The position numbers and the translations under genes were made by a program. DNA of 63,998 nucleotides, filler included, from Sanchytrium tribonematis (lineage: Eukaryota), in NCBI GenBank assembly GCA_018985235.1. It is 16 parts of 16 records of this genome, joined end to end, with 100 filler letters (N's around TTAATTAATTAA, not from the genome) between each part and the next. Parts side by side here need not be neighbours in the genome. Positions count along the whole stretch, not along the records: positions 20,419 to 22,300 come from JADGIG010001181.1; positions 22,401 to 24,281 come from JADGIG010001182.1; positions 24,382 to 26,253 come from JADGIG010001183.1; positions 26,354 to 28,222 come from JADGIG010001184.1; positions 28,323 to 30,189 come from JADGIG010001185.1; positions 30,290 to 32,153 come from JADGIG010001186.1; positions 32,254 to 34,114 come from JADGIG010001187.1; positions 34,215 to 52,499 come from JADGIG010000117.1; 8 more parts are not named here. One strand, written 5' to 3'. Numbering within the stretch: position 1 is the stretch's first letter; each line of letters begins with the position of its first letter. Shown here in pieces: positions 20,419 to 57,716 of this stretch. The notes under the pieces were generated by a model, which saw only the letters and a list, made by a program, of their open reading frames with translations, was not told the DNA's origin and searched no databases.

Positions 20419-22300
20419 TAGGTCTAGTTTGACCCAAACGATGAACTCTGTCCATAGCTTGACTTTCTACAGCTCCATTCCACCATGGATCCTATATAAA
20501 CAAAAAATACCAATATAAAAACTTGATTTGCCTCTACCAAATTCAGTGCAACGCCTCCTGCCTTAAGAGATATTAAAAATACATTCACAGAAGGGTCAGT
20601 GCTAAATGTTTCAATTGCTGCGGCTCGCTTTTCTAATGACATACTGCCGTATAATTTTGCACATTTAAATCCTCCACGATTCAACCTCCATTGGCACAAA
20701 TCCAAAAAATTGGTAAATTGAGAGAACACAATGCTCTTTATATTATGATCCTGCTTACGGGAATGAGTCAGTTCTTCCAAAAGTCCCTCAATTTTTGTGC
20801 TACTCCTCCATTTTTTCATATCAATCTTGTTAATGATACTATTTTTTAAATATTCACCGTGTTTTTTCTTTTCTTTTTTATTCGGAGTATCATCTTCCAT
20901 TTCTGGATCCTCCAATGGATCTTGTTCCAAATCAATAGTAAGTTTAACATGGCATTGCGGACATTTTGCATTGGAAAATTCTAAATATTCAATAGCACAA
21001 AGTCTGCAAAATTTGTGTTTACATTTAGCTTGAATACAATCTTCAGCATGTTCAAAACAGACACTGCAAATGTGCTTGTCTTTATTTGTCTTGTGCTTAA
21101 GACTGACCATGTCGGGATGATTAGAAGCAAGCCTTAATCGACTAATCAGCTCAAAAATGTTAGCATAATTGTTAAGTACTGTGTTTTGTTCAACGTAAGT
21201 TTCAAATTGTCTCTTACTCTGTGAGTAAAGACTTTCATAAAAGTCAAGTTCCGCTTCATTGAATCTATCTCTTCTAACAATCACATTTTTTGGTGGAAGC
21301 CCTAAATCGTCGGCATTCGATAATTTAGTTCTTCTCAACATAACCTTGTCTAAAAGAGTTCTTAATCTTTTAAAGGCAATGCCACCATCGCCATTATTTG
21401 TTCCATATTGAGTAATTGGCTTCAAAATTTGAGTGTTCCAAAATGAAAAGTGAGACATCGAGGAATGATTACACTCAGAGCACTTATGAGAACCGATGCA
21501 TTGCCAAGTCAAAGATTTACAGGGACATTTTTGACAAAAATAGTAAGAAAATGGGTCAGCTTTGAGCACTCTAATAAGACCGTAGAGATCTCCTACTCTA
21601 TTTTGCAATGGGGTGCCAGTAAGTGACCATTTGTATTGACCAACAAGATCAAATACACTTTTTGCTGTGTTAGTTTGACGATCTTTAAAGGCATGAGCTT
21701 CGTCCAATATGATTCGATGCCAACTAATTTTGTGTAAAGGCGAAGGTTCTTTTCTTTTTTCCCCATTCCTAACAAATCCGTAATTTTGTCTTCTAAAGTC
21801 AGCTTCCAGCGTATTGTAACTTGTGATAATTAAATTGTAATTTTTAATATCCTTAATTATATTTTTTCGGTTTTGGCCATGATAAATTACAGGCTTTAAA
21901 ACTTCTAAATCTGTTTTGGTGCTTATCTCATTCAGCCACTGCCTCACAGCCACAGCAGGACAGACTACAAGAGTCATTCCAGGATCACTCAGTACTAGAC
22001 TCAGCATAGAGATGGTTTTGCCCATACCCATTTCATCAGCTAGAATACCACCTGAAAAAATAGAGTGCTCTTGTCTTCTCATCCAATTTAAACCTTCCAT
22101 TTGAAATTTTAAAAGACTGATAGTTAAACCGTGTGGTTGTTCACTGAGATTATGTATTTCAGCAGTTTCAAGCTTTGAGAGATTGTTCCAAATTTCCACA
22201 AGTTCCGGGTGTTGCTGCTCTCGTTGAGCTTTGGTATTTTTCCTTCTAGTTTCTTGAGCTTTTTTCTTAGTAGCTTCCCGCCTTTCTTGTCTTGCCTGAT
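20419..22300 (-). CDS. RAD16: SNF2/RING DNA repair ATPase, partial at both ends, one 19-nt intron
   Basis: GGILADEMGMGKT, ILDEAH, LTGTPLQNRVG, PFSYYFC insert, C3HC4 RING, WRSSTKIE, SLKAGGVALNL. After splicing it reads QVFIL|DPWWNGAVESQAMDRVHRLGQ. Confidence 0.92.
20492..20510 (-). other. 19-nt spliceosomal intron GTATTTTTTGTTTATATAG
   Basis: Removal restores the conserved SNF2 motif DPWWN...QAMDRVHRLGQ. Confidence 0.93.
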
Positions 22301-22400
22301 NNNNNNNNNNNNNNNNNNNNNNNNNNNNNNNNNNNNNNNNNNNNTTAATTAATTAANNNNNNNNNNNNNNNNNNNNNNNNNNNNNNNNNNNNNNNNNNNN

Positions 22401-22814
22401 TGCGAGTAGATCCACCAAGCAGAGGCCGTGTAGAGTTCATCGTCTTCGAGCCATCCATTCCAATCGTCATCACGCATCGCATTGAAGCCACGGAGATCCC
22501 CCCTGAAGTTGTCGTCGTAGATGTCCCTGCATTTAATCCTGCCGAACAGGGAGTTGTGATTGGATTTGCAGTCTCTGGAGGGTATTTTATTGTAATGTAG
22601 TATGATTATGATGATTGCAGGTGGATTAATTGCCTGGCTCGTGTATTCCAAAGTGTTATACAAACGATTTGATGCGCAATGGCGAAAGGAATTCTTGAGT
22701 GCAGAAATTAATGAGAATCCACTATATCAATCACTGGCTAAAGAATCATTTAATCCGCTCTATGAGCATGGCAGCAGCGTCGTTGTCTCTACAGCAGAAA
22801 TAAATCGCAAATGA
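22401..22814 (+). CDS. Single-pass membrane protein with a double-NPLY (beta-integrin/Sib-like) tail, 5' partial, one 19-nt intron
   Basis: Spliced translation ...PAEQGVVIGFAVSGG|MIMMIAGGLIAWLVYSKVLYKRFDAQWRKEFLSAEINENPLYQSLAKESFNPLYEHG... Confidence 0.75.
22582..22600 (+). other. 19-nt intron GTATTTTATTGTAATGTAG
   Basis: Joins an open upstream frame to ORF 22602..22814 and completes one TM helix. Matches the intron consensus. Confidence 0.85.
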
Positions 22815-22825
22815 TTTTATTGACT

Positions 22826-23905
22826 TTATGCGGCGGCTGCAACAGCAGACTTTTTATCGGGGGAACTTGATTCAACAAGAGGTGGGGTTTTTTGTCCCGC
22901 AGCAGTTACTTTATCGCCTCCAATATAAAAGGTAAAATGATTTTCCATAATTGGCGGTGAATTCTCTTTAGACTGTGAATTCCCTTTATGTCGCTTTGAT
23001 TGAGGATGAGGATCAACACCATCTTCGCTTTCACTGTCATTGTCACTCTCTTCATCATCACTTTCACTCTTTCTTTTGTTTCCCCCAGAATTCCTTGAAG
23101 CAACCTGTCCAGTAATCTGTCCAAGTGGTGTTCCAGATGTTGCTGTTGCTGGCATGCCACTTGGAATGGGTCTTATTGGTCCACTGGGTCTATTTTCTAC
23201 AAATTTTAATCTTTTTGGGACTTCACCTTCTTTTTGTTCTAATCCTGGTGGCAATTCCAATACAGGATCACTTTCTAGATTAAATCTATCAAATCTTGAT
23301 TTTAAGGAATTTATAACCTTTTCATACTCAAACGCATTCCAATCATTTTCAAACTTCGCTCGTTGTGCAGGATTCATATTCTTAAAAGCTGGAATTGCAG
23401 TGAATACCTTGTATTTAGAAGCCAACAAGCTAAATAAATAGCCCGCTTGTTCTTTAGTCAATTCCCCACCATCTTCAGAACCTGGTAGTTTATTGATAAA
23501 TGGTTCAAAATACATCCATGACAATTTATCTGAATGAAGAATTGCAAATTTATAAGCTTTTGAAGACAAAGATTTGATTCTATCAGTTAAAATATTCCAA
23601 CAATGATGGGAAGATGCTTCTTGACCAGTCATTAATTTGTGAATCAAAAAAATTTGAAAATCAGATTCCGTCATGGGTGGCAATTTAATGTCTTCACCAA
23701 ATCCCCTTCTATTTTCGATGCTTAGATCTACATTTGAAGTTTGGTTTTCTTCATCTTGATTTATAGGGCTACGCCATGTGATTCTTCCAGCGATATCATC
23801 GATGAAATCAGATGGAATGGGAGTCACATTTACATCTAATTGACTTTCGAAATATTTCTCATTATAATACTTGTATAATATTTCACAGTCACCCAGTAAT
23901 GCCAT
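22826..23905 (-). CDS. Hypothetical protein with an acidic/basic low-complexity C-terminus (likely nuclear)
   Basis: Long ORF. The start is probably MALLGD at ~23905, since the track's GTG start overlaps the opposite gene. NKRK and SKRHK NLS-like motifs. Confidence 0.6.
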   Translation of the reverse strand: MALLGDCEILYKYYNEKYFESQLDVNVTPIPSDFIDDIAGRITWRSPINQDEENQTSNVDLSIENRRGFGEDIKLPPMTESDFQIFLIHKLMTGQEASSHHCWNILTDRIKSLSSKAYKFAILHSDKLSWMYFEPFINKLPGSEDGGELTKEQAGYLFSLLASKYKVFTAIPAFKNMNPAQRAKFENDWNAFEYEKVINSLKSRFDRFNLESDPVLELPPGLEQKEGEVPKRLKFVENRPSGPIRPIPSGMPATATSGTPLGQITGQVASRNSGGNKRKSESDDEESDNDSESEDGVDPHPQSKRHKGNSQSKENSPPIMENHFTFYIGGDKVTAAGQKTPPLVESSSPDKKSAVAAAA

Positions 23906-24106: not shown

Positions 24107-24281
24107 ATGTTTGGTCAAATCACTCGAGTATTTCGAAATGTCTCTAAATCAAAAACAACCACTAATAATGCATTAAATCAGTCCAAATCATCTGCAAATA
24201 TCAATACTACACCTACACATCCATCCAAATCACCAAAAACATCCAAAATGGAAGAAGAATTTAATGGACCTAAAGGACCTG
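24107..24281 (+). CDS. Succinate dehydrogenase assembly factor 4-like (DUF1674), 3' partial
   Basis: Mitochondrial-type basic presequence followed by EEFNGPKGP(E), the start of the GPKGPEPTRYGDW motif. Confidence 0.7.
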
Positions 24282-24381: not shown

Positions 24382-25412
24382 CCCTTTATTCTCAAGGTAT
24401 TCAAATTTCTTTGCGAAAAAAAGAAATTGATAAGGCATGGGAGATTCTTAAAGAATTTCGATTGAGCAAAGGATTTCCAGACACTGTTATTTATACTCAA
24501 ATGATTCAAGCAGCAGCAATGCAGAATTCCGCCGAGAAAGCACTTGATTTATACAATGAATTAGTCAATAATGGATTCGAAGTGAACAGTAGGACATACC
24601 AAGCCTTATTGCAAGCTTTGTCTAATCGTGAAGCATTTGCAGATCGTGTGTTTAAAATAATTAATCAAATGGAAGCAAATAACATAAAATTGAATGAATT
24701 TCACGCAATTAATATCATTGGAGCTTGTGGCAAATTGAGAGATTTAAGCACCGCCAAGAAGTACTGGAATGATTTTATAAATGAAGACCATAAAGCCCAC
24801 CAAAGTATGTACCTTAAATTAATGTGGGGCTATTATTTTGTACTCAGCAAAAAACTGAGTCTTGCCAAACTCGAAGATAGAAACAAAATTGCTGAGAATT
24901 TATCCATTTGTGATACAATCGAGGCCAATACTTTTTTGAAATTAGATGAAGAAGACGTTCAAAATCTATACAATGAAGCATTCACCTTAAAAGAAAAGTT
25001 TGGAGTCTGTGATCCATACATCAAATTGATGTGCTTAATAAGTGAGTCGGTGGCATTTGAAAGTTTAGATGTCATGAATGAGTACAGATTAAAAGATTTA
25101 ATTAAATCTTGTTCCTTGTTTGGAAATACAGATTTTGCAATTGAATTATTTACGAAATACAAGTATCCCTCTTTAAAAATCAAATTTGAAGTGATTAATA
25201 TGCTCGCAAAACATAAAAAATTAGCAGAAGCCATGAAATTGGCAATCTCCATACAAAATCCTAGATTTGATGACTTCAGATTATTATTTAAGGCCTGCTC
25301 AAATAACAAAGAACTATTGAGAATCTTCGTAAAATTATTTGAACATCCACTCGATAGACGGCATGTCCTGCGTATTAAAAAAAGAATTGCTGAAGTTTCT
25401 AATGATATGTAA
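24382..25412 (+). CDS. Pentatricopeptide repeat (PPR) protein, 5' partial
   Basis: PDTVIYTQMIQA..AEKALDLYNEL..GFEVNSRTYQALLQA PPR motifs. Confidence 0.8.
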
Positions 25413-25449
25413 ATTTTATGAATAAATTTTTATTTTTGATTTTGGAACC

Positions 25450-26064
25450 ATGACAAAAACCAAAAAAATATTGAGGAAAGAATCCAGTCTGGATTCATTG
25501 ATTTCTTTGGGAGATACTACCTTTAATATACAAGGGCTTCAAAAGTGCGACTATCTCCTTTCAAATGCCTATCCCTTAATTGTAAATCGAAAAAATTCAG
25601 AGGTTATTTTGCATCGTTTACATGAAGAGTATGGTTTTCATATAAAGTGCATTATAGATAATAATAGCCATAGAGCAATTAATCGTAATGACCTGGGCCA
25701 TAATCTAATGTCTTGTCAAAACATTACTTTGGAGAGTCCAGCTTGTAAGCCCAAAGCTATTGAAAACACCGATGTACTAGTTGTTTATGCATTCAAAAAT
25801 ATGAAAAATTATTCCCTTCGAGTAAAAAAGCAGTACAAATTTAATTATCTGATTTATGTGAGTGATTATTACGACTCAAAATTTAATCATTTTCTAAACA
25901 ACATATTTACACCACTTCATGAAGCACCACCAAAAAATATTGACAACAACTATTACAAAAGCATTTATAAATCCCTTCAAGTTAATTTAAGACCGAAGCA
26001 CTACTTTTTTACCTTGAAATGTTTTCGCAGACTTGACAAACCTGTGCACGAAGATAAAATTTAG
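25450..26064 (+). CDS. Hypothetical protein
   Basis: 204-aa ATG ORF filling the intergenic space; no recognised motif. Confidence 0.55.
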   Translation: MTKTKKILRKESSLDSLISLGDTTFNIQGLQKCDYLLSNAYPLIVNRKNSEVILHRLHEEYGFHIKCIIDNNSHRAINRNDLGHNLMSCQNITLESPACKPKAIENTDVLVVYAFKNMKNYSLRVKKQYKFNYLIYVSDYYDSKFNHFLNNIFTPLHEAPPKNIDNNYYKSIYKSLQVNLRPKHYFFTLKCFRRLDKPVHEDKI

Positions 26065-26076
26065 CAAAAAATAAAT

Positions 26077-30962: not shown

Positions 30963-32153
30963 TCAAAATAATGAAATCGCTTTGCTTGTAGTACTACTAG
31001 TCATTCTCAAATCTGGACTATTCGATGGTTTTCTCCTAGTTGGCATTTTAGCCACTACAAATCCAAATATAATCAAATCCAATCCTGCTCTTGCAAATTG
31101 TAAAATACTCAATTTTACCTCAAATGCAGTGGCTGATCCACTCCATTCTCCTTTAATGGTGACTTGAATTGTGGATATTTGACTTGGTTCTGTAGTATAT
31201 GTGCTTGTCGAGTCAATTTGTAGTTCAGTTGTGGTACTTTTTGACATTGTCGTTGTCTTTAAAGCAATCACTGGTCCTATATTATTATAAATAACGTGTC
31301 AATATGGTTACTACCTTGCTAATGGCTGTACTTGTCGATTCCGACTTGCTTGTTTGTAATACCACTGAACTAGTTGAACTAGTAGATTCAATGGTTATTA
31401 ATTTACTAGAAGTCATGACTGGATTGCACTGGATCCCAGGATTTGTAAAGAAACCCACTTTACTGCAATATGGTGGTAAATTATCCACTCCCAACAATGG
31501 ATTATTATCCAAAACACAATCATTCAACATTGATTTATCTAAAATACTTACATCTGTGAAATTATTATTTGCAATTTCAATAAATCCAGGTTTCTGTAAT
31601 TTTATTGGTCCTTGAAACTTGTTATTGTACAAATAACACATATCACACGACAATGTCGCATTTAGACACCCACTAAATTGATTATCGTTAATAATCAAAT
31701 ACACAATTTGCTGTAATAATTGTTGTGGAAATGGACCATAAAAATGATTTGAATCTAAATAAATCTTTTGTAATGATTTGGGCCATGTTGTCATTAATAC
31801 ACCACTTAATAGATTATCTGTGAGTGAATAATATTGGATTTGATTTGGGACATGGGTAATATTGCCAGTTAACAAGTTACTTTCCAATGAAACAGAAATT
31901 AATGAATCCGGTAAATAATTCACTTGTCCGTTGAATTGGTTGTTAAATCCTTGTAATTGAGTCAATCCAGATGGCAATGATGGGAAACTACCAGTAAATG
32001 CATTGTAAGATAAATACAATTCTGTCAATCCAGGTGGCAACACAGGAATAGAAGCATTTAGATAATAATTTGCTGTCAAATCTAGAAATGTCAAACTAGT
32101 TGGTAATGTACTTGGAATAGATCCGTATAATCTATTTGAATTCAAATCAAGGA
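30963..32153 (-). CDS. LRR receptor-like protein, 5' partial, one 19-nt intron
   Basis: LPxGLTxLxLxxNxFxG repeats and a CVLDNNPL C-cap. Splicing joins the stalk to the TM-containing ORF 30963..31271. Confidence 0.85.
31277..31295 (-). other. 19-nt intron GTTATTTATAATAATATAG
   Basis: Removes in-frame stops and gives LT-R-PVIALK in frame with the downstream TM exon. Confidence 0.85.
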
Positions 32154-37804: not shown

Positions 37805-40800
37805 TTACTTGTTTAGTAGGTCTTGAGATGATTTTAATATGTGGCTTTTGGAGTGTTCTTTTTTAAGATTAGTCCCATTTGTTCCACTTTTGGGACTGTA
37901 AAAGCCATCATAATAGGCTAAATACAGACTCTGAAGCGTATCACTTGGTTTGTTCTCTTTCCTCCTAGCCGGGTTACTTCTCATGACTGCTTTAGGTGGG
38001 ACTGGTTTTTGAAGTTTTTCTTCTTTTGGTAGTAATTTCATATGAATATCTAATAGTTTTGCGACATGCTGAAGCATGCTCTGGAAATCTTGCTTGTCTG
38101 TTCTAAATAAGTGATGATTACTCTGTCATATAATCCTGAAGTTCCGCTATATTTTTTTGAACATGTGATTGAATTTCCCTTAATTTGTAAACTATTTTTT
38201 TCCGATGATCAATGTCCAAGTCGTTTCCATCCGCCAAGTCGGGGTCTTTTAAATCCCTATACACGGAATCCATTAGCACATTTAATCTTTGTCGTTTTAG
38301 CTCTCTCAATTTTTCCAAGTAGGCTGCATTGCCAGAATCGCTTGTTTCATTTTGATTATCGGCCTGGGAAACTGCTTTAACAGCTTTTTTTAGCCATTTG
38401 CTGACATCAGTTTGTGATTTAGGGTTATCTTGCTGCATTCTTACTTGTCGATTGAATTTGACTAAATGAACTTTCATCATTATTTTGTCTGATTCCTGCA
38501 GCAAGGATGGTGGATTTCTAATCGTTTGCAATAATTCTTTTTTCAAAGTAATGGGTATGGTTTTATTGCGCCTCAATACGGAATCATCAAGGTCTAAAAA
38601 TTGAGGTAACGGGCAGCTATAAGTCTCTTTTAACAAGAGGCTTTCATCTTCAATAAACTCTGATTTCGCATACTGATTAATTATTTTGGATTTTCCCACT
38701 TTAAGGCTAATAATCTCATCAAAAAATAAAATTTCGTAATCAGTTTCGTCTTTTGAAGTTAAAGTACGATCAATGATAAATTGTGCGAAATGTTGGGTAT
38801 CCATGAGTTTTGATAAAAAAGGTTGATAATTTTTCGAGCATGATAATAGAAATGATTGCTTATCAAAAAATTGATCTACATCAACGTAACTTTCATCGGC
38901 ATCTTTTTTGACATAAGCCTTGTATCCCTTTAGTAAGCCTGCAAAGAAGTTTAAAAAAGTCTTTTCAACTTGTGGTTCATCAAATGATGAAGGAATATAA
39001 CTTTGAACGTCCTTTGAAACTTCTTTTGGCATTCCATGAATTGATTCAATACGTGTTGAAGCAATAGATTTTGAATCATCCTTAAGACTAAGCTTACTGC
39101 CCAGCTCTCTTTCTGGAAGTGAAATCTCCGAAACTTTCTTCATTTTTGCCCAGGCTGTTTTTAGAGATGATTTGACTTCTGATGATGATTTTGATGCAAA
39201 ACCGGGCGAAAATGTTGAAGAGCGTATAAATGTTGAGTGTCGGTTGACTGTATTACTAAAACCTCCTCCAGTGTTCTCTTCATTTATTCCATTCAAAGAG
39301 GTGAAACTAATAGAATTCCTGACGGCATTGTCTTTTGAATTTGGTGATACTGTGTCAATTGTCGAAACACTATCTTCCCTGGTATATAATAATTTTTCTC
39401 CAATTAACGATTTTCCAGAAAATATCATGACATTGCCTTGAGGATAAGTGTCTGTGGTGTACGATGGTGGCTTCGATTTCTCACCTAGCCGAATTGCTGT
39501 AGGAACGTTTTTGTATAACGTCCCTACAAGTTTTCGCTTCCTACCCTCAGATAGACCTAGAAGTTTCTGAGGATTGCGAACTGTATTGTAATCCAGGTCA
39601 ACTACAACCACTTCAAGTTCAGCAAAGTTTAAATTTTTTGGAATAGATTTTCTCTCTAATCCAACTATAAATGGCATTGGTGCTTCCAAATATGCAAGTA
39701 ATCTTTCAGGAAGTATTGGAATTAATGCATGCTGCCACGAAAAAGGATAAATAAATCTTAAAAAACATTCAATTGTGGGACATAATAAATTTAAGGTGTC
39801 TGATACGAAGAGAATTTTGGATTCCAATAATATACACTCAATTACTTCTACTATATTTTCTGGACATAATGTACAGAATAAAGGGTAGTAGGAATAATTT
39901 TTCATGATGGGGATTTTGTTAAGTGGCGGTCTTGAGACGTAAAAGTTGAAGTCGTTTACAGCCAAGTTAATTTCGGTTTTGCCGGGAGGTGGAATCGGAG
40001 TCTCATTAATTAAGCTCACCAAAAATCGTTCCAGAGGAGTATCATTTGGCCAGGACCTTGCCGAGATATCATTATTTAGGTCAGGATGATTTGTCGTATA
40101 ACGTATTACAACAGAGAGCCAGTCCTTCATTAAACTATAAACTGGAAATTTTGCAAGTAATCCGATGGCCTTTGGGGCAAAACAACGCTCTGGCCTTAAA
40201 TATAAATTAGAAAAAAATGGATCCAATGTGCTTATAAGTAACTGAAGTCTTTCTTGTGTGTCTCTAATGTCATCTTGTATTTCGCTTGTAGGGGATATAT
40301 CTCTTGTCTTTTTCAGTCGCTCAAGACTCATTCTGGTCTTCTTTATCTGGTCAAAAATATGGTCCACATACTCGACGTCTGATTGTTGACAATTTCTTGC
40401 ATTCCAAAGGTCAATAGCTTTCTGAATTTTGGCCTTGACATCTCCTTCAATCAACTCCCAAACTATGATTGTGGTTCCGTACAAGCGGGTTCCATTTTCT
40501 AGAGTTACTATAAAAGAGTGATGCGAAGGTTTCGGTTCTTTCCAGGATATTCCTTGTGTTGTAATATCAATCTCAGACCAATTATCCAGCGGGGCACAAT
40601 GAATTGTTGTGTCATCTGGAAAGCAAAACATAGGCACATGAACGGGATAATCTTCATCTTGCTCTGGATATGTGCAAAGTGTAGTAGGTATAAATTTATA
40701 AGAAAGTGGATGTGGATCCTTTGGTCTCTTTTTAATCACTGATTTTACTTCATTCGTCATTTCGTCATTTGGTATTGGTATGTCTAAGCGAGGTGCTGCT

Positions 40801-41048
40801 ACAGGCTCCTCATTCATAACACTCTCTGATTTTTTTATGATTTGACTTCGCCGACGCATTACCAAAGGTTTTTCCTTCTTTTCTTCAGAGGGCGCGTTTG
40901 TAAATGATTTTTTAGATTTGTCATAATCTTTTCGATTTGGCTCTTCCTCGAGCTCCTGTTGAACTGCCTCAAAAATATCGGTACCATTATTCACAGCTAG
41001 TTCTTTTAAACCACAAACAAAAAAATAGGAAATGAGTCGATTGTCCAT
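37805..41048 (-). CDS. DENN-domain Rab GEF, one 19-nt intron
   Basis: RLISYFFVCG, PMFCFPD, HSFIVTLENGTRLYG, ILLESKILF, YPFSWQHALIPILP..LEAPMPFIVG, dDENN TQHFAQFI. Spliced to ORF 37805..38077. Confidence 0.9.
38103..38121 (-). other. 19-nt intron GTAATCATCACTTATTTAG
   Basis: Removes the stop and gives YMTE-TDKQDFQSMLQH in frame. Confidence 0.85.
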
Positions 41049-44100: not shown

Positions 44101-44182
44101 CATTTCTTATTTTAAGAACCTGCTCATATCTCTCTGATTTATTCCAATCCACAATTTCTAAGGAACTTGCAGAAATTTCCAT
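41138..44182 (-). CDS. ASH/Ig-like repeat ciliary protein (CFAP65/Hydin-like), divergent
   Basis: W..S..YEQVLKIRN...LSPGLSHKINLVF and further ASH-like repeats (KIRNISDFP, LMLNNKS). Confidence 0.5.
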   Translation of the reverse strand: MEISASSLEIVDWNKSERYEQVLKIRNDGKSSLRFIYYVVGKFFQTSAKYHGICFLSPGLSHKINLVFSSDTKQTITETLVIKAVNGGMKEVQLKAVTQVRKFEICNPVIDLGRVLAFRDNHFTLCVFNSEPTNVDCNVISNVVKQKTIILKAGINNLNLSYNIQEAGSFSENIEIVSEGCSQIFGIKGYSVIPSLECVIVPQIYKPKTKNMMVFKLQNSKDFDFEIQARFICKEIQLDVHTSLYINHKSSAFLEVPITPIYNNYDYFVSCMVKVNDLVIVDKVISIATAVPEIEILTEELVFLIDMEKQSYINNFFKIRNISDFPIYAVLHAPTNEIELPQIVELNPKEYRTINVKFSPLFPASYYFSIIVGIQGTSFQRLICFASAISSNNLMPFEALKYRPYHSTEIKFETRYLASRVITFIKNDSESDVFCRIPSKIQSYNFEITASHSSATIGSHSSLEINFAILSHEPIYQLVPINYELNGKLFYFNLAIYDISNLLENEKEYLNSSCGKFSWYYPDKHGLNLKSIPIVYNKSDLCLLENHLPISKIESYLLDGKGSDFSVEWNGQFLKFLSKKRNEIDLSVRFKVKNEENFLIVPNNTSLKVFQSLELPINFCLKYSTKDCIFVYVNNEYKLSIPVENSEIFMVCKAAYENIDEFSCVKHIKSQKLELDDTYIGKMVGIKFPIIVPNGVIVSSQVVQGSEILSSQYFESFQFDQEQKDSIKMMKDKELIYDFFKISDNYYICSNTISLSRLGSLSFKIIVTIKGALIFKELEIDLEISCKKYEINFNLLTNLFYPLQSIPADALSVKYSRQVSEPFRYELIKDFDGILVTNFHYLWLGSKMCGTSLNLPLMLNNKSSSKLSFICKSELLTPNQQLVEIEPCKVLNLVLNFSLPLVPKLFLAKIELIEGRWNKNIFIGCTAVSWADSKGLENYSLYNNLQTQYQTVHFQTLARMTTQYLISVLNVDDADVDCVQNYTYFSGTEKVELNFHFLTLLKELIDHLALTLLK

Positions 44183-44188
44183 AAAAAT

Positions 44189-44687: not shown

Positions 44688-46179
44688 ATGTTATTAAGAT
44701 TCTCTAGACTGGCGAGTAAAATAATCAAGGTGCCTTCTATGGGAGACTCTATATCAGAAGGTACACTTAAAGGATATAATAAGAAGATTGGCGACTTTGT
44801 TACTGCTGATGAAGAGATTGCTCAAGTCGAAACAGACAAGGTGGATGTCCCCATTAATTCTCCATTTGCCGGGAAATTAGTGAAATTTTTTGCAGAAGAA
44901 GACACTACCGTTTTGGTAGGTCAAGATCTGTTAGAAATCGACACAGAGGCAAAAAACGACGTGAAAATCGGTTCAGAAGTATCGAAGCAAAAAATAGAAG
45001 AAAAGTCAACGAAGAAAGACGAAAGCCCAGATTTAAAGATTAGCTTTTCCACCAATGCTAAAATTTCAGTCGTTAAGGTTCCATCTTTAGCAGATTCAAT
45101 AAAAGAAGGCACTTTAAAAGAATGGGCAAAAAAGGAAGGCGAATATGTCTCCCAAGATGAATTGCTAGCTTCTGTGGAGACTGATAAGGTCGATGTCCCA
45201 ATTAACTCTCCAACTAGTGGCACTTTAAAAAAAATATTAGTTCAAGAAAATACAAAAGTAACTGTAGGAGAAAATATTGCAGAAATCGATTCCAATGGGC
45301 AGCCAAATGAAAGCGCTTCATTTTCAAAAAAACCCTCAACATCTTCTTTGACAACACCTGCGGAAAAGCCTACAGCTAAAGTTGTTGAGCCAAAACCGGT
45401 AATTAAATCAGATCAATCAAAACCATTGAAAGATAGCAACACAAGCGCCCTTAAATTCTCACGATCCGAAGAAAGAGTCAAAATGACTAGAATGAGGCTA
45501 AAAATCGCAGAAAGATTGAAGGAATCTCAGAATAGCGCGGCGTCTTTAACCACTTTCAATGAAATTGACATGTCCAAATTATCAGATCTTAGAAAGTCTT
45601 ATAAAGACGCAGTCTTGAAGAAGTACGATATAAAGCTTGGATTTATGTCTGCTTTCTTGAAAGCATCTGCGTTGTCAATGAAAGATATACCCGAAATTAA
45701 TGCTGTCATTTCTAAGGATGAAATTGTTTATCGGGATTATGTTGATATTAGTTTCGCGGTCGCAACTCCAAAAGGACTGGTTACACCGGTTATTAGAAAT
45801 TGCGAGTCGAAATCTTTGGTCGATATCGAAAAAGAGGTCGCCCTTCTTGGAGAAAAAGCAAAAAAGAATCAAATAACGTTGGAAGATTTAGCCGGTGGTA
45901 CTTTCACTGTTAGCAATGGTGGTGTTTTTGGAAGTTTGTATGGAACACCTATAATTAATCTTCCACAATCTGCAATTTTAGGTATGCACGCTATAAAGGA
46001 AAGGCCTGTTGCTATTAATGGAGAGGTTTCTTATTTTAATGTAGGTTGTGATTCGCCCGATGATGTATGTTGCGCTAACTTACGACCATAAATTGATCGA
46101 TGGTAGAGAAGCTGTTACATTCCTAGTTACCTTGAAAAACTATATAGAGGATCCTAGCAGGATGTTATTAGAAATTTAA
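44688..46179 (+). CDS. KGD2: 2-oxoglutarate dehydrogenase E2 (dihydrolipoamide succinyltransferase), two lipoyl domains, one 19-nt intron
   Basis: Two [13 protein letters not shown] lipoyl motifs, [31 protein letters not shown]. The spliced end is [24 protein letters not shown]...MLLEI*. Confidence 0.95.
46026..46044 (+). other. 19-nt intron GTTTCTTATTTTAATGTAG
   Basis: Removal restores the catalytic TYDH..IDG motif of E2o. Confidence 0.95.
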
Positions 46180-46245: not shown

Positions 46246-49200
46246 ATGGGAAACCAACCCAGTCAACCAAATGACGAAACTAGAAGAATAGAGAGAAAGA
46301 TAGATCAAATGGGAAGTGATCACACACTGGATAAATCAAAAAGTGAATCAAGAGATAGTAATAACAGCATTTCGATATCCAGCCCCGAAATATCTCCAAT
46401 AGGACAAAGAAGAATGAGTATGTCGAAAAGAAAGAAGACAGGAATGAAGTCACCTGTTAAGGCTATTGAGGAAGAGCTACCACGTCCGGCTTCTGATGAA
46501 ATTGATAAGTTGTTAGAGGTGGCCATGGATGATTTAAATTTACCGGCTGACAAAAAAGATGAATTTAGGGCTTTCGATGCAGATCGAAAATGGGAGCTTA
46601 TTAAAAGAAATAAAACTGACTCCGACGAAACTGCCAGATTGGAGATTCAAGCCAAATTAAAAGGCCTTAATCCAGATTTCCCATTGGTCGAAGCGAAAGA
46701 TGTGCTTGTTACATTAAGATCAAAACCGATTAGATGGATTCATCTCTTTATAGAAATGGAAGGTTTGTCGGTGATAATGGAATCTTTAAAACGATTCCAA
46801 GAATTAGGAGAACCTTCGAAGGAAGAAGTATGTATAAGGTGTGTAAGAGCATTAATGAATACAAACAAAGGATTTTTATCCATATTGGAATATCCTAATT
46901 CTTTATCAGCATTTTGCAACGGAATTAGTTCAAAATCGTTGAAGGCAAAAATTCAGGCACTAGATATTTTATCCGCCGTTTGTATGGTTCCGGGGCAGCA
47001 CAAAAATGTAATTGATTCTTTGGTATTTACAAAATCTGATTTTGAAGGACGATTTCAACGATTGATTCCATGCTTTATAGATATTAATAGTAAAAATAAC
47101 GGAAATGTTACGACTGCTGAAATCGATTTAATGGTTAGTGGTTTTGCTTTTATTAATTCGGTATTACACTCTGAAAATGTTCCTTCTATGGAGTATCGAA
47201 TGCACCTTCGGAAAGAGTTATTCGATATAGGATTTGGTCAAATTGTGGAAAAATTAACCGGATTTGAACATCCTGAAATTCAGGCTCAAATTGAGATATT
47301 CAGTGATGCAACCGAAGAGGATGAGAAGGAACTGGCGGACAGAATCGACCAACCAAAATTGAAATTAGCACAATCAGAGGAATTATATACCATGATTTTT
47401 AACTCTTATAGAAATTCTAAACTGTGGAAACCGTTTACAAATATATTATTTTCATTATTACTAACTCCGGATAATGTTCACCAGAAAGGTCGGATAATTC
47501 TTGCAATTGATTTTATTCTGAGACAGGTGGTGATTCAAAAAGACGGGGAAGACCCTGACCCTCTGGTGAGATTATTAAAATTTGATGTTAGAACTCTTTA
47601 TGATAATATTAAAGATTTAGAACTATCAGTTGAAAATGACTCAAAAAAAACTGGAACAATCGATTCCCAAAAATTAAAGGATACTTTAAAGGTAATAATC
47701 AAAGATGCTGATATACTCAATCAAATTTGGAACGCCTTCGAAAAAGAAGGATTTGTTGGGCCTGATGAAAACGATCAAGGAAAATCAGTTTTGAGTTTGA
47801 ATGAAGATTTTCAAAAATTGGAACCAAAGAATGGTCTGGATAAAATAACTGAAAATAGTGAAGAAAGAGTTAATAACGCAGCACTGCCAAACTCTGAAGT
47901 TCAATTGCAAAACTCCAGTAAGTCAAGCGTTCCTCCTCCGCCACCATTTGAAGAAGCTTCAAACGGACCACCTCCTCCACCCATGATGGGAGGACCGCCT
48001 CCGCCTCCTCCATTTGGAGACATGTCTTCCGGGCCGCCTCCACCGCCTGGTATGGGTGGTCCACCACCACCTCCAGGAATGGGTGGGCCCCCACCTCCTC
48101 CTGGATCGTTCTTTGGTCAAATTTTTGGAGGCCTCCCTCAGAAAAAGACCAATTTGTCAACAAAGCCAATGAAGCCCTTACAATGGACAAAATTGCCCAA
48201 CCCTAGGATAAAAGGTACGGTATGGAAAGACATTGATGACGAAAAGGTCAGGCCAATACTTAATTGGACAGATTTTGAAGATTTGTTTGAAAATCAGCAA
48301 AAAGACAAGAAACAGAAAGAAGACAAAGATGACAAGCCTAAAGAATTGAAATTGATTGATGCAAAGAAATCTCAGAATCTTAACATTTTACTTAAAAATA
48401 TCAAATTACCCATACAAGACATCAGAAAAGCTATATTTAGTGTTAATACAGCTGTTTTATCTCTCGAAGTTATTAACCAACTCTTAAAGTTTATCCCCAC
48501 AAAAGAAGAATTGGATTTACTGAGGAAAAATTTGGACAAAAAAGATTTATTTGGAGACGCCGAGAGATTTTTTGCGGAAATAATGGATATCAACATGTAT
48601 GAAGACAGACTTAAGTCCATTGCGTTTCGAGAAAATTTTGAGGACCACATGAAAGAAGTGGAAAATCTTATCAAAAAATCTAGAATGGCATGTACCGAAC
48701 TTAAAACCAGCGAGAAGTTCAAAAAAATTCTTCAAGTCACATTGGCTTTGGGAAATCACATGAATAGTGGACAAAAAGCGGGAGCTTATGGTTTTACGAT
48801 ATCTTCACTTTTAAAATTATCAGACACAAAATCCAAGTTGCCATCTCGCCGCTATACTCTCTTGCATTTTCTAGACGATATAATTGAAACAAAGTTCCCG
48901 GAGTGTTCTGATTTTGTGGCTGATATTGGAAGCGTGGAGGAAGCTGTTAAAGTTAAATTTAACGATATTCGGGGTCAATTAGGCAATATTAAGAGTAACG
49001 TGGATGATCTTCGTAAAACTGTAAATGAATTGGCAAAGTCTAGTAGTCATGACAAAAATGATAAATTTTATGGAATATTTGAGGCATTTTTAAAACGAGC
49101 AGACTCTAGAGTTGCAGCTGCTGAAAATGAATTAGTCGAAGCGGAAGCAACTTTTGAGCAGACAGCCGACTTCTTTGCAGAGGACCCGAAATCTACCACA

Positions 49201-49729
49201 CCTGAAGAATTTTTTTCCATATTTCAGACATTCATAACATTATATCAGCAGGCGCATCGAGAAAACCAAGAATACATCGCGCGAATAAAAGAATTAGAAA
49301 AGCGGGAATTGAGAAAAAGGGTAAATTTTAATAATTTAGCAAATGGAAGAAGAAAAACTCAGAAAACTTCAAGGGCCATCCGCTGCTGGAGGGCTTGGTA
49401 AGAAGGAGAAGGGAGAATTTGACGACTTGATTAGTTCCATCAAGTCAGGAAAAGCATTCATGCAAAAAAAACCTGACAAACTTATGAAGAAGAAAAAATC
49501 AAACATCTCAATAACAGAGCCAAAGTCTCTTTCCCAAAAGAGTAGCTCTAGTTTTGTTGCGGAATTAAAAGAAGTTCAGAATGGTGAATCACAATCATTA
49601 AGACAAAAATCAAGCACTGCGCCCTCCACCGCCGCTGATTTGTTTAAAGATAGGGAAATAAAACGGAATCCTAGCGACCGGTTATCTAAAACGGACGAGA
49701 TGATGAAGAAAATGAATCAACGCATGTAA
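46246..49729 (+). CDS. Diaphanous-related formin (GBD/FH3, FH1, FH2, DAD), one 19-nt intron
   Basis: Poly-Pro FH1, MKPLQWTK, LALGNHMNSG..GAYGF..SSL.KL. DAD GEFDDLISSIKSGKAF lies in exon 2. Confidence 0.93.
49321..49339 (+). other. 19-nt intron GTAAATTTTAATAATTTAG
   Basis: Joins ELRKR to QMEEEK in frame, attaching the DAD motif. Confidence 0.9.
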
Positions 49730-51434: not shown

Positions 51435-51437
51435 CAT

Positions 51438-52499
51438 TTATTCGTCAAGTTCTGGATCTTCAACTAGCTTTATGCACACATTTATATGTGGCAAAACTTT
51501 TTCGCCGCATTTATATCGTGTGAGCAAATCATCTAAAAATTGCGCTGGTCCTAATTGTACAATTTGCTGTATAACGCTTTTGTACAGTTGCTGATTTACA
51601 GGGTGTTCCCTGGCCTTTCTGAAGGTATCTTTTTCACTAGTCAGAACAACTATTTTCAATTGAAGAATAATCTTTGAAAGTTGAAATAAAATTTGTTGCC
51701 TAGGCGGAGTTTTGTTTAATTTTGATGAGTATGCTGAAAAACATTTTGCTACAATATAAGGAGAGTTTGGAGGGTAGACGTATGGTACAGCTTTGTTGCT
51801 TCTGACGAACTTAAAAACACGATCTAACATAGTTAAAGCCGACACATACAACTTTTTAATATTTTGCACCACTATTTCCTCGAGCACTCCATGTTTAAAA
51901 CTGCATTTTTTTAAAACCAAAAATGCGAATTGGCTCATTAATTCGATGGTTTCTGCAGTCATTTCACCTTCTTTCTCAGGAAGCCTTTCGTGGTAATTTT
52001 TTGATTCTTTGCTGTACTTCAAGGCAGAGTCTATATCTCCAATATCCCGATAAGATTCGCTTAACCAAAACAGGTTTGATGAAACCAACTGATCAATAGT
52101 GGTCTGATTCAATCGAAACCCGGAATTTGAGCGCAGCATAGATATTGCTTCCTCAAATGAGCAAATTGCTTCCCGAGGTTTTTTTAAAAGCAAACTCAGC
52201 ATGGCGCACTAAATAAGAAAGAATGACCTTTGTGAATTGTTCAGAAGCAATAATCCCAGGCCCAATAAACTTTTTAATCAGTTCTAGTTTTTGATTTTGG
52301 AGTGATTCCACCAATATATAGTCTTGATCACACCGGATAACAGTCTCACTTAATATTTCAAGCAATTTAATAGTAGCTGCACTTGAGTATCCTACATGAC
52401 ATTCAACAATTTGTAATGTAGACTCAACTGTTGAATTTAAATTTTTAACTGGCTCATTTTCTATGATATGAACTAAAGAATTAAAGGCTTGAGCGATTG
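51438..52499 (-). CDS. TPR-like helical protein, 5' partial, one 19-nt intron
   Basis: Frame open from the contig end. AICSFEEAISM and LSESYRDIGDIDSALKY are TPR-like. Two overlapping ORFs are joined by the intron. Confidence 0.7.
52209..52227 (-). other. 19-nt intron GTCATTCTTTCTTATTTAG
   Basis: Joins EQFTK to CAMLSLL in frame; matches the consensus. Confidence 0.82.
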
Positions 52500-52698: not shown

Positions 52699-52720
52699 GT
52701 TAGAAAAATTTATTTAGGCC

Positions 52721-54560: not shown

Positions 54561-55471
54561 ATATAGCACGACAAGAACTACGAGATTGCTTTGTTCATGC
54601 ATTAAATCCGGATTTAGTGACTATAAAATGGAATAAAGAATTAATTTCATTTATTGAATCTGACCATGTTGACATTACATTTAAAGACAATACGACATAC
54701 CAAGTATCATTATTAGCCGGATGTGATGGGATTTATTCAAAAGTACGCCAATTATTATTACCAAATCAATCACTCAATTTCTTAAAGACTTTTGTGATGC
54801 TTGGAATTGTAAAATATCAAACACAAATGCATCAACGAGTGATTCAAATGTCTAATGGATCTACTAGGATATTCTGTATGCCATTTAACAAGGTAGAAAT
54901 GATGTGGCAACTCTCTTTTCCAATATCTCATGAAAATGAAGTAAGTGGTGATTTGCAGCAAATAGCACTGGATCAATGTAATGGATTTTATCCATCCATT
55001 ATTAATATGATCCGATCTACTCCATTAGACTTGATCACTGGATATCCCGTGTTTGATCGCGATCCTCTTGATTTTACAGATTTAAAATCATCCAAAATCA
55101 CTCTATTGGGTGATGCAGCCCATCCGATGAGCCCATTTAAGGGACAAGGTGCAAATCAAGCCATATTAGATGCTGTCTCATTTGTAAATTGTCTATTAAA
55201 TTCAAAGCAACCCTTTTCAGACTATGCACAAGAAATGACCGATAGAACTAGAAATAAAGTCATACTAAGTCGTGAATCTATTGATATTCTACATGATAAT
55301 CAATTTACCAATACGCATTATCAATTAATAAGACGAGAATATGCAAATATTAATGAACATTTGAAATTGTATGAATATTTAAAATCTAATCAAATGGGTA
55401 TTTGGGACATGAAAAAGATTGATGAATACTTGAAACTACAGTTAAATAGAGTCAATTCAATAAAAAACTAG
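54561..55471 (+). CDS. FAD-dependent monooxygenase, 5' partial
   Basis: LAGCDGIYSKVR and TLLGDAAHPMSPFKGQGANQA. Confidence 0.88.
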
Positions 55472-55522
55472 TCACATTCTCACAATGCAGCACCCTTTTA
55501 CTTTCTTTTTTTAAACAGGGGA

Positions 55523-56420
55523 ATGTTGTTGTTCCTTTTGCCATTTGTATTTGGTGATATATCTGCATCTGACTATGAAGTCAAGGAATGGAATAAGCTT
55601 TATAAGCTCCAATATCCAATTTATAATGTGATCCCGAACTTGGACAATTTAAATATTGCATTTGACAATTTATTAGGAAATGAGACATACATGAGTACCC
55701 TGACTGTTCTACAACGATCAGAATTTATCAGAGTGCATATGGATTGTAATAAGCTATTTAAAATTGAAAAATCCCACGAATATTCAAAATTATCTCAATT
55801 TACCGAATATTTTGCGGGAGACCCACATACTTTAGAGTACTTCTCAAAGAGATGTTCTATTGATAAATGTCTAGATAAAATTAAGGCGAATATTAAATAT
55901 ATGATTGCGTTTGCGCAACGTCGTTTACTCAAAATTATTAGAAAAGTGAAATATTTAAATTTTGAGAAACAATTGATCATGAATTACCAGAATTCAAAGA
56001 ATTTCAATGATATTTATAATGTAATTATCGCTCAGTTTTCTATAGTTGATGGTCTACGTATTGTCCCATTTGGAATTAATGCCTTTTTGTATTTATTCTG
56101 GAACGGAGATTTTGAATCTTCATACTCTGAATTCCAGTACAATGCTATTAAAAAACAAGTTAACTTTCAAAATACTGCATTCGGTGTGACAACTTACGAC
56201 TTTATGGATAGTTACGGATATTATTTGGCAATTGTGGGTAGAATATATTCGAATGAGCACACTTCGATGCTTCAAAATAAGAAAGCATTTTTCAATTTAA
56301 TTCATTCCATTGAGGATGATAAATTGTACATGGATCTGGTCACATTTGGATATCTGTTGAATTACTTTGAAGATTCAAAAGTAGATTTGGGAAAGCGAAA
56401 AAGGATCGAGCCTGAATATA
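55523..56420 (+). CDS. Secreted hypothetical protein, 3' partial
   Basis: Short signal peptide MLLFLLPFVFG; ORF open to the contig end. Confidence 0.6.
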
Positions 56421-56520
56421 NNNNNNNNNNNNNNNNNNNNNNNNNNNNNNNNNNNNNNNNNNNNTTAATTAATTAANNNNNNNNNNNNNNNNNNNNNNNN
56501 NNNNNNNNNNNNNNNNNNNN

Positions 56521-57716
56521 ATTTGTAACCACCTCAATCAGCAATGCGCATGGCAATTTGTACCAATTTGAAATCCAATCAGAAACACCCCTACAATTAA
56601 ATCTCGCATTCACAACCAATGCATTCACATCCATATTTGTATATTTTAATGATCAAGTCTATCAACAACCCATGGATGGCAATCAACCCATTATTGTACA
56701 AGGCACTGGTCAAGTGGATATTGCAATTTCTTCTCAAATTGGAATGGGTCATTTTATACTCAATAGTGTCACTGCATGTCCCATGAATCAATTAAATCCA
56801 CGTACAGATGTATTTAAAGATCATAAATGTGCTACAATCCCAACTACTCAATTTATTTATTATCCCACTGGTCAAACTGCTAAATCCACCATTACAGAAA
56901 CCATTTATCAATTACCATTCACTAATATCCAATTTCCAGCCAATACCATCTTTAAATCAGGTGTATTTAATACTCAAACATCATTTTATGCTTTTAATTC
57001 TGGTAAAACTGAATTATTTGGTCATTTTCAACTATCTATCACCCATAATCCCATTATAGCCTCTATTCTCATCATATCTGTGTTTAATAGACAATCTGAT
57101 GACATTTCAATTTGTACAGATGGGAATATTTTGAATCAATTATTAAATCAATTAAATTCTATAAATTCAGGTGAGAATCTATCTAATTGCAAATCACTCA
57201 CTGCTACACTCGTAGAAATACCATATTTATACAATCCAGTATTATTTAATGGATATTCAGATCAGAAATACCAATTAAATGAATTATTAAACATGTCTTC
57301 TGTATTCTCAATTTCAACCAATATGCCAATGAATTACTATTTAGGAAAAGCATATGCCAATTTATTAGGAGGTTATTCAACTAGAGCAGCTGTATTGGGA
57401 TTTAATAGTATTCAAATGGTGCATTCATTTAATAAAATTCTAGTGAATTCAGATGTGGTCAAATTGGAGAATGTTCAATTGTATTTTGATGAAGATCCTG
57501 GTACTGTGACATATTGTAGTACAAATGATTATAAAATATCATTTATCAAAGTATTATTAACTAATTTAGGAGATAGGGAGTGGGACGACAAGTGATTCAG
57601 GAACTGGGACATCACAGAATAATAAAAGTAAATTTCCAACCAATGTGCCAAAATTACAGAATAGTGGGATGCAATCAAGTGGATTATTCATGATTTTGAT
57701 GATTTTGATGCAATAA
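56521..57716 (+). CDS. Putative GPI-anchored surface protein, 5' partial, one 19-nt intron
   Basis: The spliced C-terminus EIGSGTTSDSGTG...LQNSGMQSSGLFMILMILMQ* resembles a GPI signal. Confidence 0.65.
57551..57569 (+). other. 19-nt intron GTATTATTAACTAATTTAG
   Basis: Phase 0, contains a CTAAT branch-like motif, and removal yields a GPI-like tail. Confidence 0.8.

What the first reader, a model, noticed from the sequence alone, without database searches (positions are those of the whole stretch)
20492..57569. Fixed-length 19-nt spliceosomal introns in a fungus-like genome
Seen in sequence: eight ORF breaks in eight unrelated genes on five contigs are each repaired by removing exactly 19 nt bounded by GT..TAG. 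The introns are at 20492-20510, 22582-22600, 31277-31295, 38103-38121, 46026-46044, 49321-49339, 52209-52227 and 57551-57569. Three restore well-conserved motifs: SNF2 DPWWN/QAMDRVHRLGQ in RAD16, catalytic TYDH..IDG in KGD2, and the formin DAD. I found no intron of any other length, although introns that keep the frame would be harder to see. Established knowledge: introns this short are known from Stentor (15-16 nt) and chlorarachniophyte nucleomorphs (about 18-21 nt), while fungal introns are normally several-fold longer and variable. Inference: this lineage has an independently evolved, ruler-like minimal splicing system, possibly with a reduced spliceosome. Standard gene predictors would miss these introns and truncate the proteins.
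Basis: partly seen in the sequence, partly recalled or inferred. Interest (0 to 1): 0.92.

Follow-up and report, generated by a model that had tools for sequence, protein, structure and literature searches.

The report
19-base introns in a sanchytrid fungus
Eight genes of a fungus related to the algal parasite Amoeboradix are each interrupted by a 19-base insert with intron-type ends and one shared motif; these are likely real spliceosomal introns, would be shorter than the fungal or animal introns in the papers I found, and leave the public protein models of these genes cut short, but no RNA was available to show the splicing.

Summary
Confirmed. All 8 segments are 19-nt GT..TAG inserts at the stated places. 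In RAD16 and KGD2 removing exactly 19 nt restores the spacing of 112/120 and 113/120 homologues. New here: all 8 end in TWATNTAG, putting a likely branch A at -6 (2/200,000 shuffles); none has G at +5; 7/8 lie within 130 codons of the stop. The organism is a sanchytrid: nearest named relative Amoeboradix gromovi. Relatives' unspliced ORFs break at the same codons (KGD2 4/4, formin 3/3, DENN 1/1, RAD16 0/2), which excludes assembly error; their tails decode to 19 nt (4 cases) but also 21 and 30 nt. So 19 is a sharp mode, not a fixed ruler; the fixed part is branch-to-AG. The A. gromovi annotation keeps U1-70K, U2AF, SF1, Prp8, Dbr1 but lists no Slu7 or Prp18. No RNA evidence. No paper on sanchytrid introns found; the scan had tiny introns in Rozella and Neolecta, none in sanchytrids. 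New variant of a known kind.

The parts
20492..20510 (-). 19-nt intron, phase 0, in RAD16 (gene 20419-22300, both ends cut by the contig); likely branch A at 20497
   Evidence: absent from the two closest relatives P0001 (A. gromovi) and P0002, which are colinear with the spliced form
22582..22600 (+). 19-nt intron, phase 2, inside the predicted transmembrane helix of a membrane-protein gene (22401-22814); likely branch A at 22595
   Evidence: motif and ORF fusion only, no homologue
31277..31295 (-). 19-nt intron, phase 1, in an LRR/Ser-Thr-stalk gene (30963-32153); likely branch A at 31282
   Evidence: motif and ORF fusion only; a 25-nt alternative to a downstream CAG also keeps frame but lacks the motif
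38103..38121 (-). 19-nt intron, phase 2, in a DENN-domain gene (37805-41048); likely branch A at 38108
   Evidence: relative P0366 (78% identity) stops at the same MTE-stop, which fits a shared intron but also a shared C-terminus
46026..46044 (+). 19-nt intron, phase 0, in KGD2 (44688-46176) upstream of the TYDH catalytic stretch; likely branch A at 46039
   Evidence: same break in 4 of 4 close relatives
49321..49339 (+). 19-nt intron, phase 0, in a diaphanous-type formin (46246-49729) upstream of the DAD-like stretch; likely branch A at 49334
   Evidence: same break in 3 of 3 close relatives
52209..52227 (-). 19-nt intron, phase 0, in a TPR-like gene (51438-52499, 5' end cut); likely branch A at 52214
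   Evidence: motif and ORF fusion only
57551..57569 (+). 19-nt intron, phase 0, in an unknown gene (56521-57716, 5' end cut) whose exon 2 ends in a hydrophobic tail; likely branch A at 57564
   Evidence: motif and ORF fusion only; a 64-nt alternative donor also keeps frame

Best explanation
The eight 19-base GT..TAG inserts are likely U2-type spliceosomal introns of a sanchytrid fungus, predicted to be recognised mainly from their 3' end: a branch motif TWAT whose A sits 5 bases before the end of the intron. Shown: the inserts, their lengths, the invariant TWATNTAG end, the lack of G at +5 and of a pyrimidine tract after the A, and the shared breaks in relatives. Inferred: U2 pairs with the TWAT motif, A14 attacks the 5' G to give a 14-base lariat loop, and the AG five bases on is docked directly. 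The branch-to-AG distance is the fixed part; the 5'-site-to-branch loop has a floor near 14 bases (19-nt introns) and can be longer (16 and 25 bases in the 21- and 30-nt cases inferred for relatives). So short a branch-to-AG distance needs no Slu7/Prp18 in yeast, and Prp18 disfavours it, which would fit their absence from the A. gromovi annotation. Old intron positions likely shrank to this floor under deletion bias in a compact parasite genome; survivors are few (0.18 per coding kb) and cluster near gene 3' ends.
For: Exact-length repair against homologues; invariant T12/A14/T15 not used for selection; inner bases 100/112 A+T against 60% in flanks; same-codon breaks in independently assembled relatives: KGD2 4/4, formin 3/3, DENN 1/1; tails of P0126 and P0242 decode to the expected exon 2 only at 19 nt (scores 61 and 79 against next best 15 and 18), A. 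gromovi's second formin P0298 best at 19 (weaker); the 21- and 30-nt cases end in L-I-stop, the reading of YTWATNTAG (2-3% by chance each); A. gromovi encodes Prp8, SF3B1, U2AF, SF1, Dbr1; branch A at the same -6 place in Stentor (PMC9505925) and Yarrowia (PMC2483917); Slu7/Prp18 dispensable at short distance and Prp18 a minimum-distance ruler (PMC10711555; PMC10158995).
Against: No transcript evidence. Only 3 of 8 introns are anchored by full-length homologues; the DENN break could be a true C-terminus. Relatives' lengths come from protein tails, not DNA: the 21- and 30-nt calls assume the stop is the acceptor TAG, P0125 has only one decodable exon codon and needs a GC donor (24 nt also fits without the motif), P0124 gives no length. 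The spliceosome inventory is of A. gromovi, not this organism, from an eggNOG table of ORFs called without splicing on a 92%-complete assembly, searched with recalled KO/KOG ids, so the Slu7/Prp18 absence is weak. The 3' bias rests on n=8, my own 39 gene models and a cut-off chosen afterwards.
Confidence: 0.9

Rival explanations
1. Strict ruler: the spliceosome of this lineage measures a fixed 19 nt from GT to AG.
For: 8 of 8 in the window are 19 nt; no 18-, 20- or 21-nt motif-bearing intron repairs a gene; 4 inferred 19-nt cases in relatives.
Against: Orthologous introns in A. gromovi and a sister sequence decode to 21 nt and one KGD2 to 30 nt with the 3' motif intact; 0 of 8 allows up to 31% other lengths. 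It may still hold for this one species.
Confidence: 0.25
2. Assembly or amplification errors, or pseudogene frameshifts, that happen to look like introns.
For: The window does hold broken transposon ORFs (Ty3-like 14354-18329, LINE-like 60452-62292, recombinase-like 10446-12227) with plain frameshifts or stops; published sanchytrid assemblies come from whole-genome amplification.
Against: A 1-nt error would leave six extra residues where 113 of 120 and 112 of 120 homologues have none; independent assemblies break at the same codon; errors would not share TWATNTAG. The transposon breaks show no such motif.
Confidence: 0.02
3. Non-spliceosomal removal: Ire1/tRNA-ligase-type cleavage as for the roughly 19-26-nt HAC1/XBP1 introns (lengths recalled), DNA-level excision as for ciliate IESs, or minor (U12) introns.
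For: Similar length to fungal HAC1 introns (recalled).
Against: 0 of 8 have a CNGCNG loop at either junction, fold energies are 0 to -0.6 kcal/mol, none has TA ends or the U12 5' signature (motifs recalled); all have GT..AG and a branch-like A.
Confidence: 0.03
4. The introns are real but mostly unspliced or regulatory: retention tunes C-terminal truncation (for example a formin without its DAD), as with poorly spliced microsporidian introns.
For: 7 of 8 sit near the 3' end; microsporidian short introns are often retained (PMC13644364; PMC6009652); weak 5' sites.
Against: Retention would delete the KGD2 catalytic stretch and the RAD16 helicase end; 18-21-nt nucleomorph introns are spliced efficiently.
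Confidence: 0.12

Closest known systems
15-16-nt introns of Stentor coeruleus and other heterotrich ciliates (PMC9505925, passages read)
   Same: U2-type GT..AG, A/T-rich, branch A six from the 3' end, TAG acceptor, sharp length mode, largely conserved core spliceosome
   Different: Loop 14 nt rather than 10; fungal, parasitic lineage; some orthologous introns inferred at 21 and 30 nt; 3' positional bias
18-21-nt introns of chlorarachniophyte nucleomorphs (PMC6009652, PMC2483917, passages read)
   Same: Same size class, 19 nt, weak 5' site
   Different: Nucleomorph introns have no discernible branch A and are dense (3.1 per gene); here a branch motif is invariant and density is about 0.2 per gene, in a main nucleus
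16-17-nt introns of Mikrocytos mackini (PMC10245619, section 7 read)
   Same: Parasite, few introns, very narrow size range, conserved sequence
   Different: Rhizarian; spliceosome cut to 17-19 proteins and no introns in metabolic genes, whereas A. gromovi lists about 60 spliceosome-tagged proteins and KGD2 carries an intron
Microsporidian introns (about 25 nt) and Rozella introns (about 30 nt) (PMC6349667, PMC2483917, passages read)
   Same: Holomycotan parasites with short introns; E. cuniculi branch TAAYTT close to the AG
   Different: Longer; strong GTAAGT 5' site and extreme 5' bias in ribosomal-protein genes, against no G+5 and 3' bias here; separate lineage
Yarrowia lipolytica, Trichomonas and Giardia introns with fixed branch-to-AG distance (PMC2483917, passages read)
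   Same: Branch point anchored to the AG, no pyrimidine tract; Yarrowia has the same A at -6
   Different: Those have strong branch consensus (ACTAAC) and, in Yarrowia, long introns
Myxobolid and dicyemid introns (median 22-27 bp; PMC13644364, parts 1-2 of 3 read)
   Same: Opisthokont parasites, 5' site reduced to GTa
   Different: Longer medians, broader range, branch A drifts with length rather than staying fixed

Membership tests
U2-type spliceosomal introns | GT (or GC) 5' end and AG 3' end | tested here: met
   8 of 8 GT..TAG
U2-type spliceosomal introns | Branch-point adenosine in a U2-pairing context (WCTRAY-like) | tested here: met
   TWAT with A14 invariant in 8 of 8; 2 of 200,000 shuffles. 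Sequence signature only; branching not shown
U2-type spliceosomal introns | Precise removal restores the conserved reading frame | tested here: met
   KGD2 and RAD16 spacing equal to homologues, formin C-terminal stretch restored; 5 of 8 lack a homologue test
U2-type spliceosomal introns | Removed from mature mRNA through a lariat | not testable with these tools
   No RNA run could be laid on the window
U2-type spliceosomal introns | Major spliceosome encoded by the organism | tested here: inconclusive
   No whole genome held and no snRNA in the window; the relative A. gromovi lists Prp8, SF3B1, U1-70K, U2AF35/65, SF1, Brr2, Dbr1
Tiny fixed-size intron systems (Stentor, Mikrocytos, nucleomorph type) | Nearly all introns within a 1-4-nt size range genome-wide | tested here: inconclusive
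   8 of 8 are 19 nt in the window, but 21 and 30 nt are inferred in relatives and the genome was not available
U12-type introns | RTATCC 5' signature | tested here: not met
   0 of 8 (motif recalled)
Ire1-cleaved HAC1/XBP1-type introns | CNGCNG loop hairpins at both junctions | tested here: not met
   0 of 8, no stable fold (motif recalled)
Sanchytriomycota (placement of the organism) | Groups with Amoeboradix gromovi to the exclusion of other fungi | tested here: met
   Top named hit for RAD16 73%, KGD2 64%, formin FH2 region 83%; formin tree clade of 4 rows, SH-aLRT 100, quick tree, single gene

The most novel reading that the evidence does not exclude
The whole phylum Sanchytriomycota splices overlooked introns with a mode of 19 nt, the shortest yet in any fungus or animal, using a near-complete major spliceosome that lost Slu7 and Prp18 and reads a fused branch/acceptor signal; the surviving introns sit near gene 3' ends, the reverse of the usual fungal pattern, which points to a different rule of intron retention (for example coupling to 3'-end processing), and on the order of a fifth of the genes in the public sanchytrid proteomes are truncated.
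Probability: 0.45. Interest if true: 0.86.

Novelty: new variant of a known kind. Interest (0 to 1): 0.76.

Why it matters
It would add an independent origin of near-minimal spliceosomal introns inside Fungi, below the sizes given for microsporidia (about 25 nt), Rozella (about 30 nt) and myxozoans (median 22 bp) in the papers read. Because orthologous introns seem to differ in length (19, 21, 30) while the branch-to-AG part stays fixed, the group offers a natural test of what sets the lower limit of the lariat loop and of whether Slu7/Prp18 loss goes with ultra-short branch-to-AG distances, in a relative of yeast whose splicing is structurally well known. The 3' clustering runs against the reverse-transcription model of intron loss. 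In practice the published sanchytrid proteomes were called by TransDecoder on genomic contigs, so intron-bearing genes are truncated or split, which can bias gene-loss claims for this phylum.

Tried and rejected
No whole genome was held for the window, so no genome-wide length table or snRNA search was possible. Sequencing-run search: no RNA holder listed; this is no evidence either way. Rfam and tRNA scans of the window: 0 hits. A gap pattern for an insertion at the KGD2 site in JGI metagenomes gave 2 loci, both in-frame protein insertions of 12-15 nt, one bacterial-like, one from a eukaryote with longer introns elsewhere in the gene. GTDB and IMG/VR scans for sanchytrid DNA: nothing, so no relative's intron was seen as DNA. 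Other candidate introns rejected: 10948-10966 (inside an open recombinase-like ORF, GC-rich), 52699-52717 and 6514-6532 (no gene on that strand), 24144-24162 (upstream frame closed), 57781-57799 (AAG end, no motif), 9727-9750 (stop in a decayed RT), 55451-55471 and 25409-25487 (join separate genes). P0364, clustered with the formin by the database, is an unrelated 38-residue peptide and was ignored. ESM Atlas on the 70-residue exon 2 at 22602: nothing above 0.85; a second Atlas query did not complete. The careful formin tree did not finish; the quick tree is reported. Literature searches with no report of sanchytrid introns: (library limited to open PMC and bioRxiv). The main supplementary PDF and one large table of PMC8371127 could not be read and one file has no text; they may mention introns.
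Full report
Observation. The window is 16 contigs joined by spacers. Each removal fuses two open frames. For KGD2, 114 of 120 homologue hits are full length and 113 have 24 residues between GMH and YDH; the spliced window gene has 24. For RAD16, 112 of 120 hits have 11 residues between ALNL and WWN (8 did not match the pattern); the spliced gene has 11. Pfam PF00198 ends at model position 189 in KGD2 exon 1 and resumes at 191 in exon 2. The formin exon 2 supplies the DDLISSIKSGKAF stretch seen in chytrid and animal homologues. The other five genes had no full-length homologue in my searches.

Column counts show T12, A14 and T15 invariant and position 13 A or T, so every intron ends TWATNTAG. 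Shuffling the 14 inner bases of each intron gave three invariant columns in 2 of 200,000 trials; for the five introns without homologue support the chance is about 1e-5. This matches the fungal branch consensus WCTRAY (PMC2483917, passages) with the A five bases before the intron end, the same place as in Stentor (A10 of 15; PMC9505925, passages) and Yarrowia. The 5' site is weak: A at +3 in 5 of 8, G at +5 in 0 of 8; no internal AG; all 8 sequences differ, so they are not copies of one element. Inner bases are 100 of 112 A or T against 60% in flanks.

Other lengths. Scans for any GT/GC..AG of 10-120 nt that repairs an ORF break found no other credible intron in non-transposon genes; rejected candidates are listed under Tried and rejected. 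Of 32 strict motif sites, 10 have GT at 19 nt, 1 at 18, 2 at 20, 0 at 21. RAD16, KGD2 and formin show no window-specific in-frame insertion of 4 or more residues against their close relatives. Density is 8 introns in my 39 gene models, 0.18 per coding kb. With 0 of 8 exceptions the 95% bound on other lengths is still 31%.

Organism. The nearest named relative for RAD16 (73%), KGD2 (64%) and formin (83% over the FH2 region) is Amoeboradix gromovi, with unnamed ENA proteins at similar distance. A quick formin tree of 18 selected rows puts the window, A. gromovi and two ENA rows in one clade (SH-aLRT 100) on a long stem (single gene, careful search unfinished). The window is therefore a sanchytrid other than A. 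gromovi; the species is left open. The paper that founded the phylum called proteins with TransDecoder on genomic contigs and has no occurrence of 'splic' and one of 'intron' (in a reference title) in its main text (PMC8371127; passages and sections 6 and 18). The window's own unspliced KGD2, formin and DENN ORFs are held as whole proteins in the public collection.

Relatives share the sites. Because relatives' proteins were also called without splicing, their C-terminal tails read through the intron. KGD2: 4 of 4 close relatives leave the family sequence at the same codon. Formin: 3 of 3. DENN: the one close relative ends at the same MTE-stop, which fits a shared phase-2 intron or a shared terminus. 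RAD16: 0 of 2; both are intron-free and colinear with the spliced form. Back-translating each tail under GT/GC..AG constraints: P0126 gives [13 protein letters not shown] only at 19 nt (score 61, next 15); P0242 gives QMEEEKMRKMQG only at 19 nt (79, next 18); P0125 fits 19 nt with a GC donor on one codon of evidence; P0243 (A. gromovi) and P0244 fit only 21 nt; P0123 only 30 nt; P0124 stops after two codons and gives no length. The second A. gromovi formin P0298 scores best at 19 nt against three reference helices (weak scores). The 21- and 30-nt tails end L-I-stop, which is how YTWATNTAG reads in frame; that ending has a 2-3% chance in A/T-rich sequence, and the two 21-nt rows are sisters (support 90), so these are two events, not three. 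These lengths are inferred from protein, not seen as DNA; collection scans yielded no sanchytrid DNA.

Mechanism. Shown: the inserts, the motif, the shared breaks. Inferred: U2-type splicing with branching at A14, a 14-nt lariat loop and docking of an AG five bases downstream; fixed branch-to-AG distance and a 5' loop with a floor. In yeast the shortest natural distance is 10 nt, 7-nt sites are used when Prp18 is missing, and Slu7/Prp18 are dispensable at short distances (PMC10711555, passages; PMC10158995, passages). In the A. gromovi eggNOG sheet of PMC8371127 (supplementary file 4; the file is cut within the second species' sheet, the A. gromovi sheet lies before the cut) I found SF3B1, Dbr1, SNRNP40, cactin, Snu13, U1-70K, U2AF35, U2AF65, SF1, Prp8, Brr2, Prp22, Isy1, Yju2, Cwc25 and Prp17, and 63 rows tagged spliceosomal complex (a few from the second sheet); Slu7, Prp18 and U1-C were not found by name or by recalled KO/KOG ids. 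That is a lead, not a proof of loss: the assembly is 92% complete and only about half its proteins are annotated. The spliceosome looks far less reduced than in Mikrocytos (17-19 proteins; PMC10245619, section 7).

Position. Seven of 8 introns lie within 130 codons of the stop; KGD2, formin, DENN and RAD16 have theirs at 0.89-0.91 of the coding length. Against 34% of coding bases that near a 3' end, P is about 0.003, with a cut-off chosen afterwards and n=8. A relaxed scan found no 5' introns of this form. Fungal introns are normally lost from 3' ends and kept near start codons (PMC8476143, passages); microsporidian ones show extreme 5' bias (PMC6349667, passages). The cause is unexplained; coupling to 3'-end processing is my guess.

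Rivals. Assembly error or pseudogenes fail on homologue spacing and shared breaks. Ire1-type, IES-type and U12 introns fail on recalled signatures (0 of 8). A strict 19-nt ruler may hold for this species but not for the clade. Regulated retention is possible but would remove the KGD2 catalytic end; 18-21-nt nucleomorph introns are spliced efficiently (PMC6009652, passages).

Comparison and novelty. Tiny U2 introns are known from heterotrich ciliates (15-16), Mikrocytos (16-17), chlorarachniophyte nucleomorphs (18-21), myxobolids (median 22-27; PMC13644364, parts 1-2), microsporidia (about 25) and Rozella (about 30); Amphiamblys has none (PMC5381614, passages). Searches for sanchytrids with intron or splicing terms and for very short fungal introns (listings only, apart from the papers named) gave no report of this. 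The scan's earlier notes cover 26-30-nt introns in Rozella and short introns in Neolecta, none in sanchytrids; one of them led me to the Prp18 paper. Verdict: real feature, new variant of a known kind; confidence 0.9 that these are spliceosomal introns, interest 0.76. RNA evidence and a genome-wide table are the missing tests.

Noticed in passing
window 20492-57569 (all eight introns): 3' positional bias: 7 of 8 lie within 130 codons of the stop; in the four genes of known length they sit at 0.89-0.91 of the coding sequence (P about 0.003 with a post-hoc cut-off). Fungal introns usually cluster at 5' ends (PMC8476143). A relaxed 19-nt motif scan found no 5' counterpart.
   Followed up: partly
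window 22401-22814 +: The spliced product has a transmembrane helix followed by two NPLY motifs, like an integrin-beta cytoplasmic tail; Pfam Integrin_b_cyt matches only weakly (E 0.27, below cut-off). 5' part of the gene is off the contig.
   Followed up: partly
window 44688-46176 +: KGD2 has two lipoyl domains; the same holds for the sanchytrid relatives and, by length and coverage, for several chytrid and Hanseniaspora hits.
   Followed up: partly
P0209 (Umbelopsis ramanniana KGD2 model): This public model also stops just after the codon where the window's KGD2 intron lies, hinting that the position is old and shared with Mucoromycota; 1 of 115 non-sanchytrid hits.
   Followed up: no
P0125 (unnamed KGD2 relative): Its tail begins with Ala at the donor, which would mean a GC-AG 19-nt intron.
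   Followed up: partly
PMC8371127 supplementary file 4, rows 1135-1136: A. gromovi SF1/BBP appears as two ORFs on one contig, possibly one gene split by a tiny intron.
   Followed up: no
window 3-5983: Tandem array of four secreted LRR-like genes with Ser/Thr stalks; a fifth relative at 30963-32153 carries one of the introns.
   Followed up: no
window 10446-12227 -, 14354-18329 -, 9077-10229 +, 60452-62292 -, 7554-7868 -: Decayed mobile elements: a recombinase-like ORF with an in-frame stop (Crypton-like label recalled, no Pfam hit), a Ty3-like gag-pol with a frameshift and a stop, LINE-type RT pieces and a DDE-like fragment.
   Followed up: no
window 18330-62392 (15 places): The window is 16 contigs joined by a spacer of 44 N, TTAATTAATTAA, 44 N; ORFs listed across the N runs are artefacts.
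   Followed up: yes
window 41138-44188 -: 1016-codon ORF with weak Cep192/Hydin-like Ig-domain matches below Pfam cut-offs, of possible interest in a lineage with a reduced flagellum.
   Followed up: no
L001 1-3310: Metagenome contig of a eukaryote with KGD2 split by several introns of a few tens of bases but none at the window's site, next to an intron-free PheRS-beta-like ORF.
   Followed up: no
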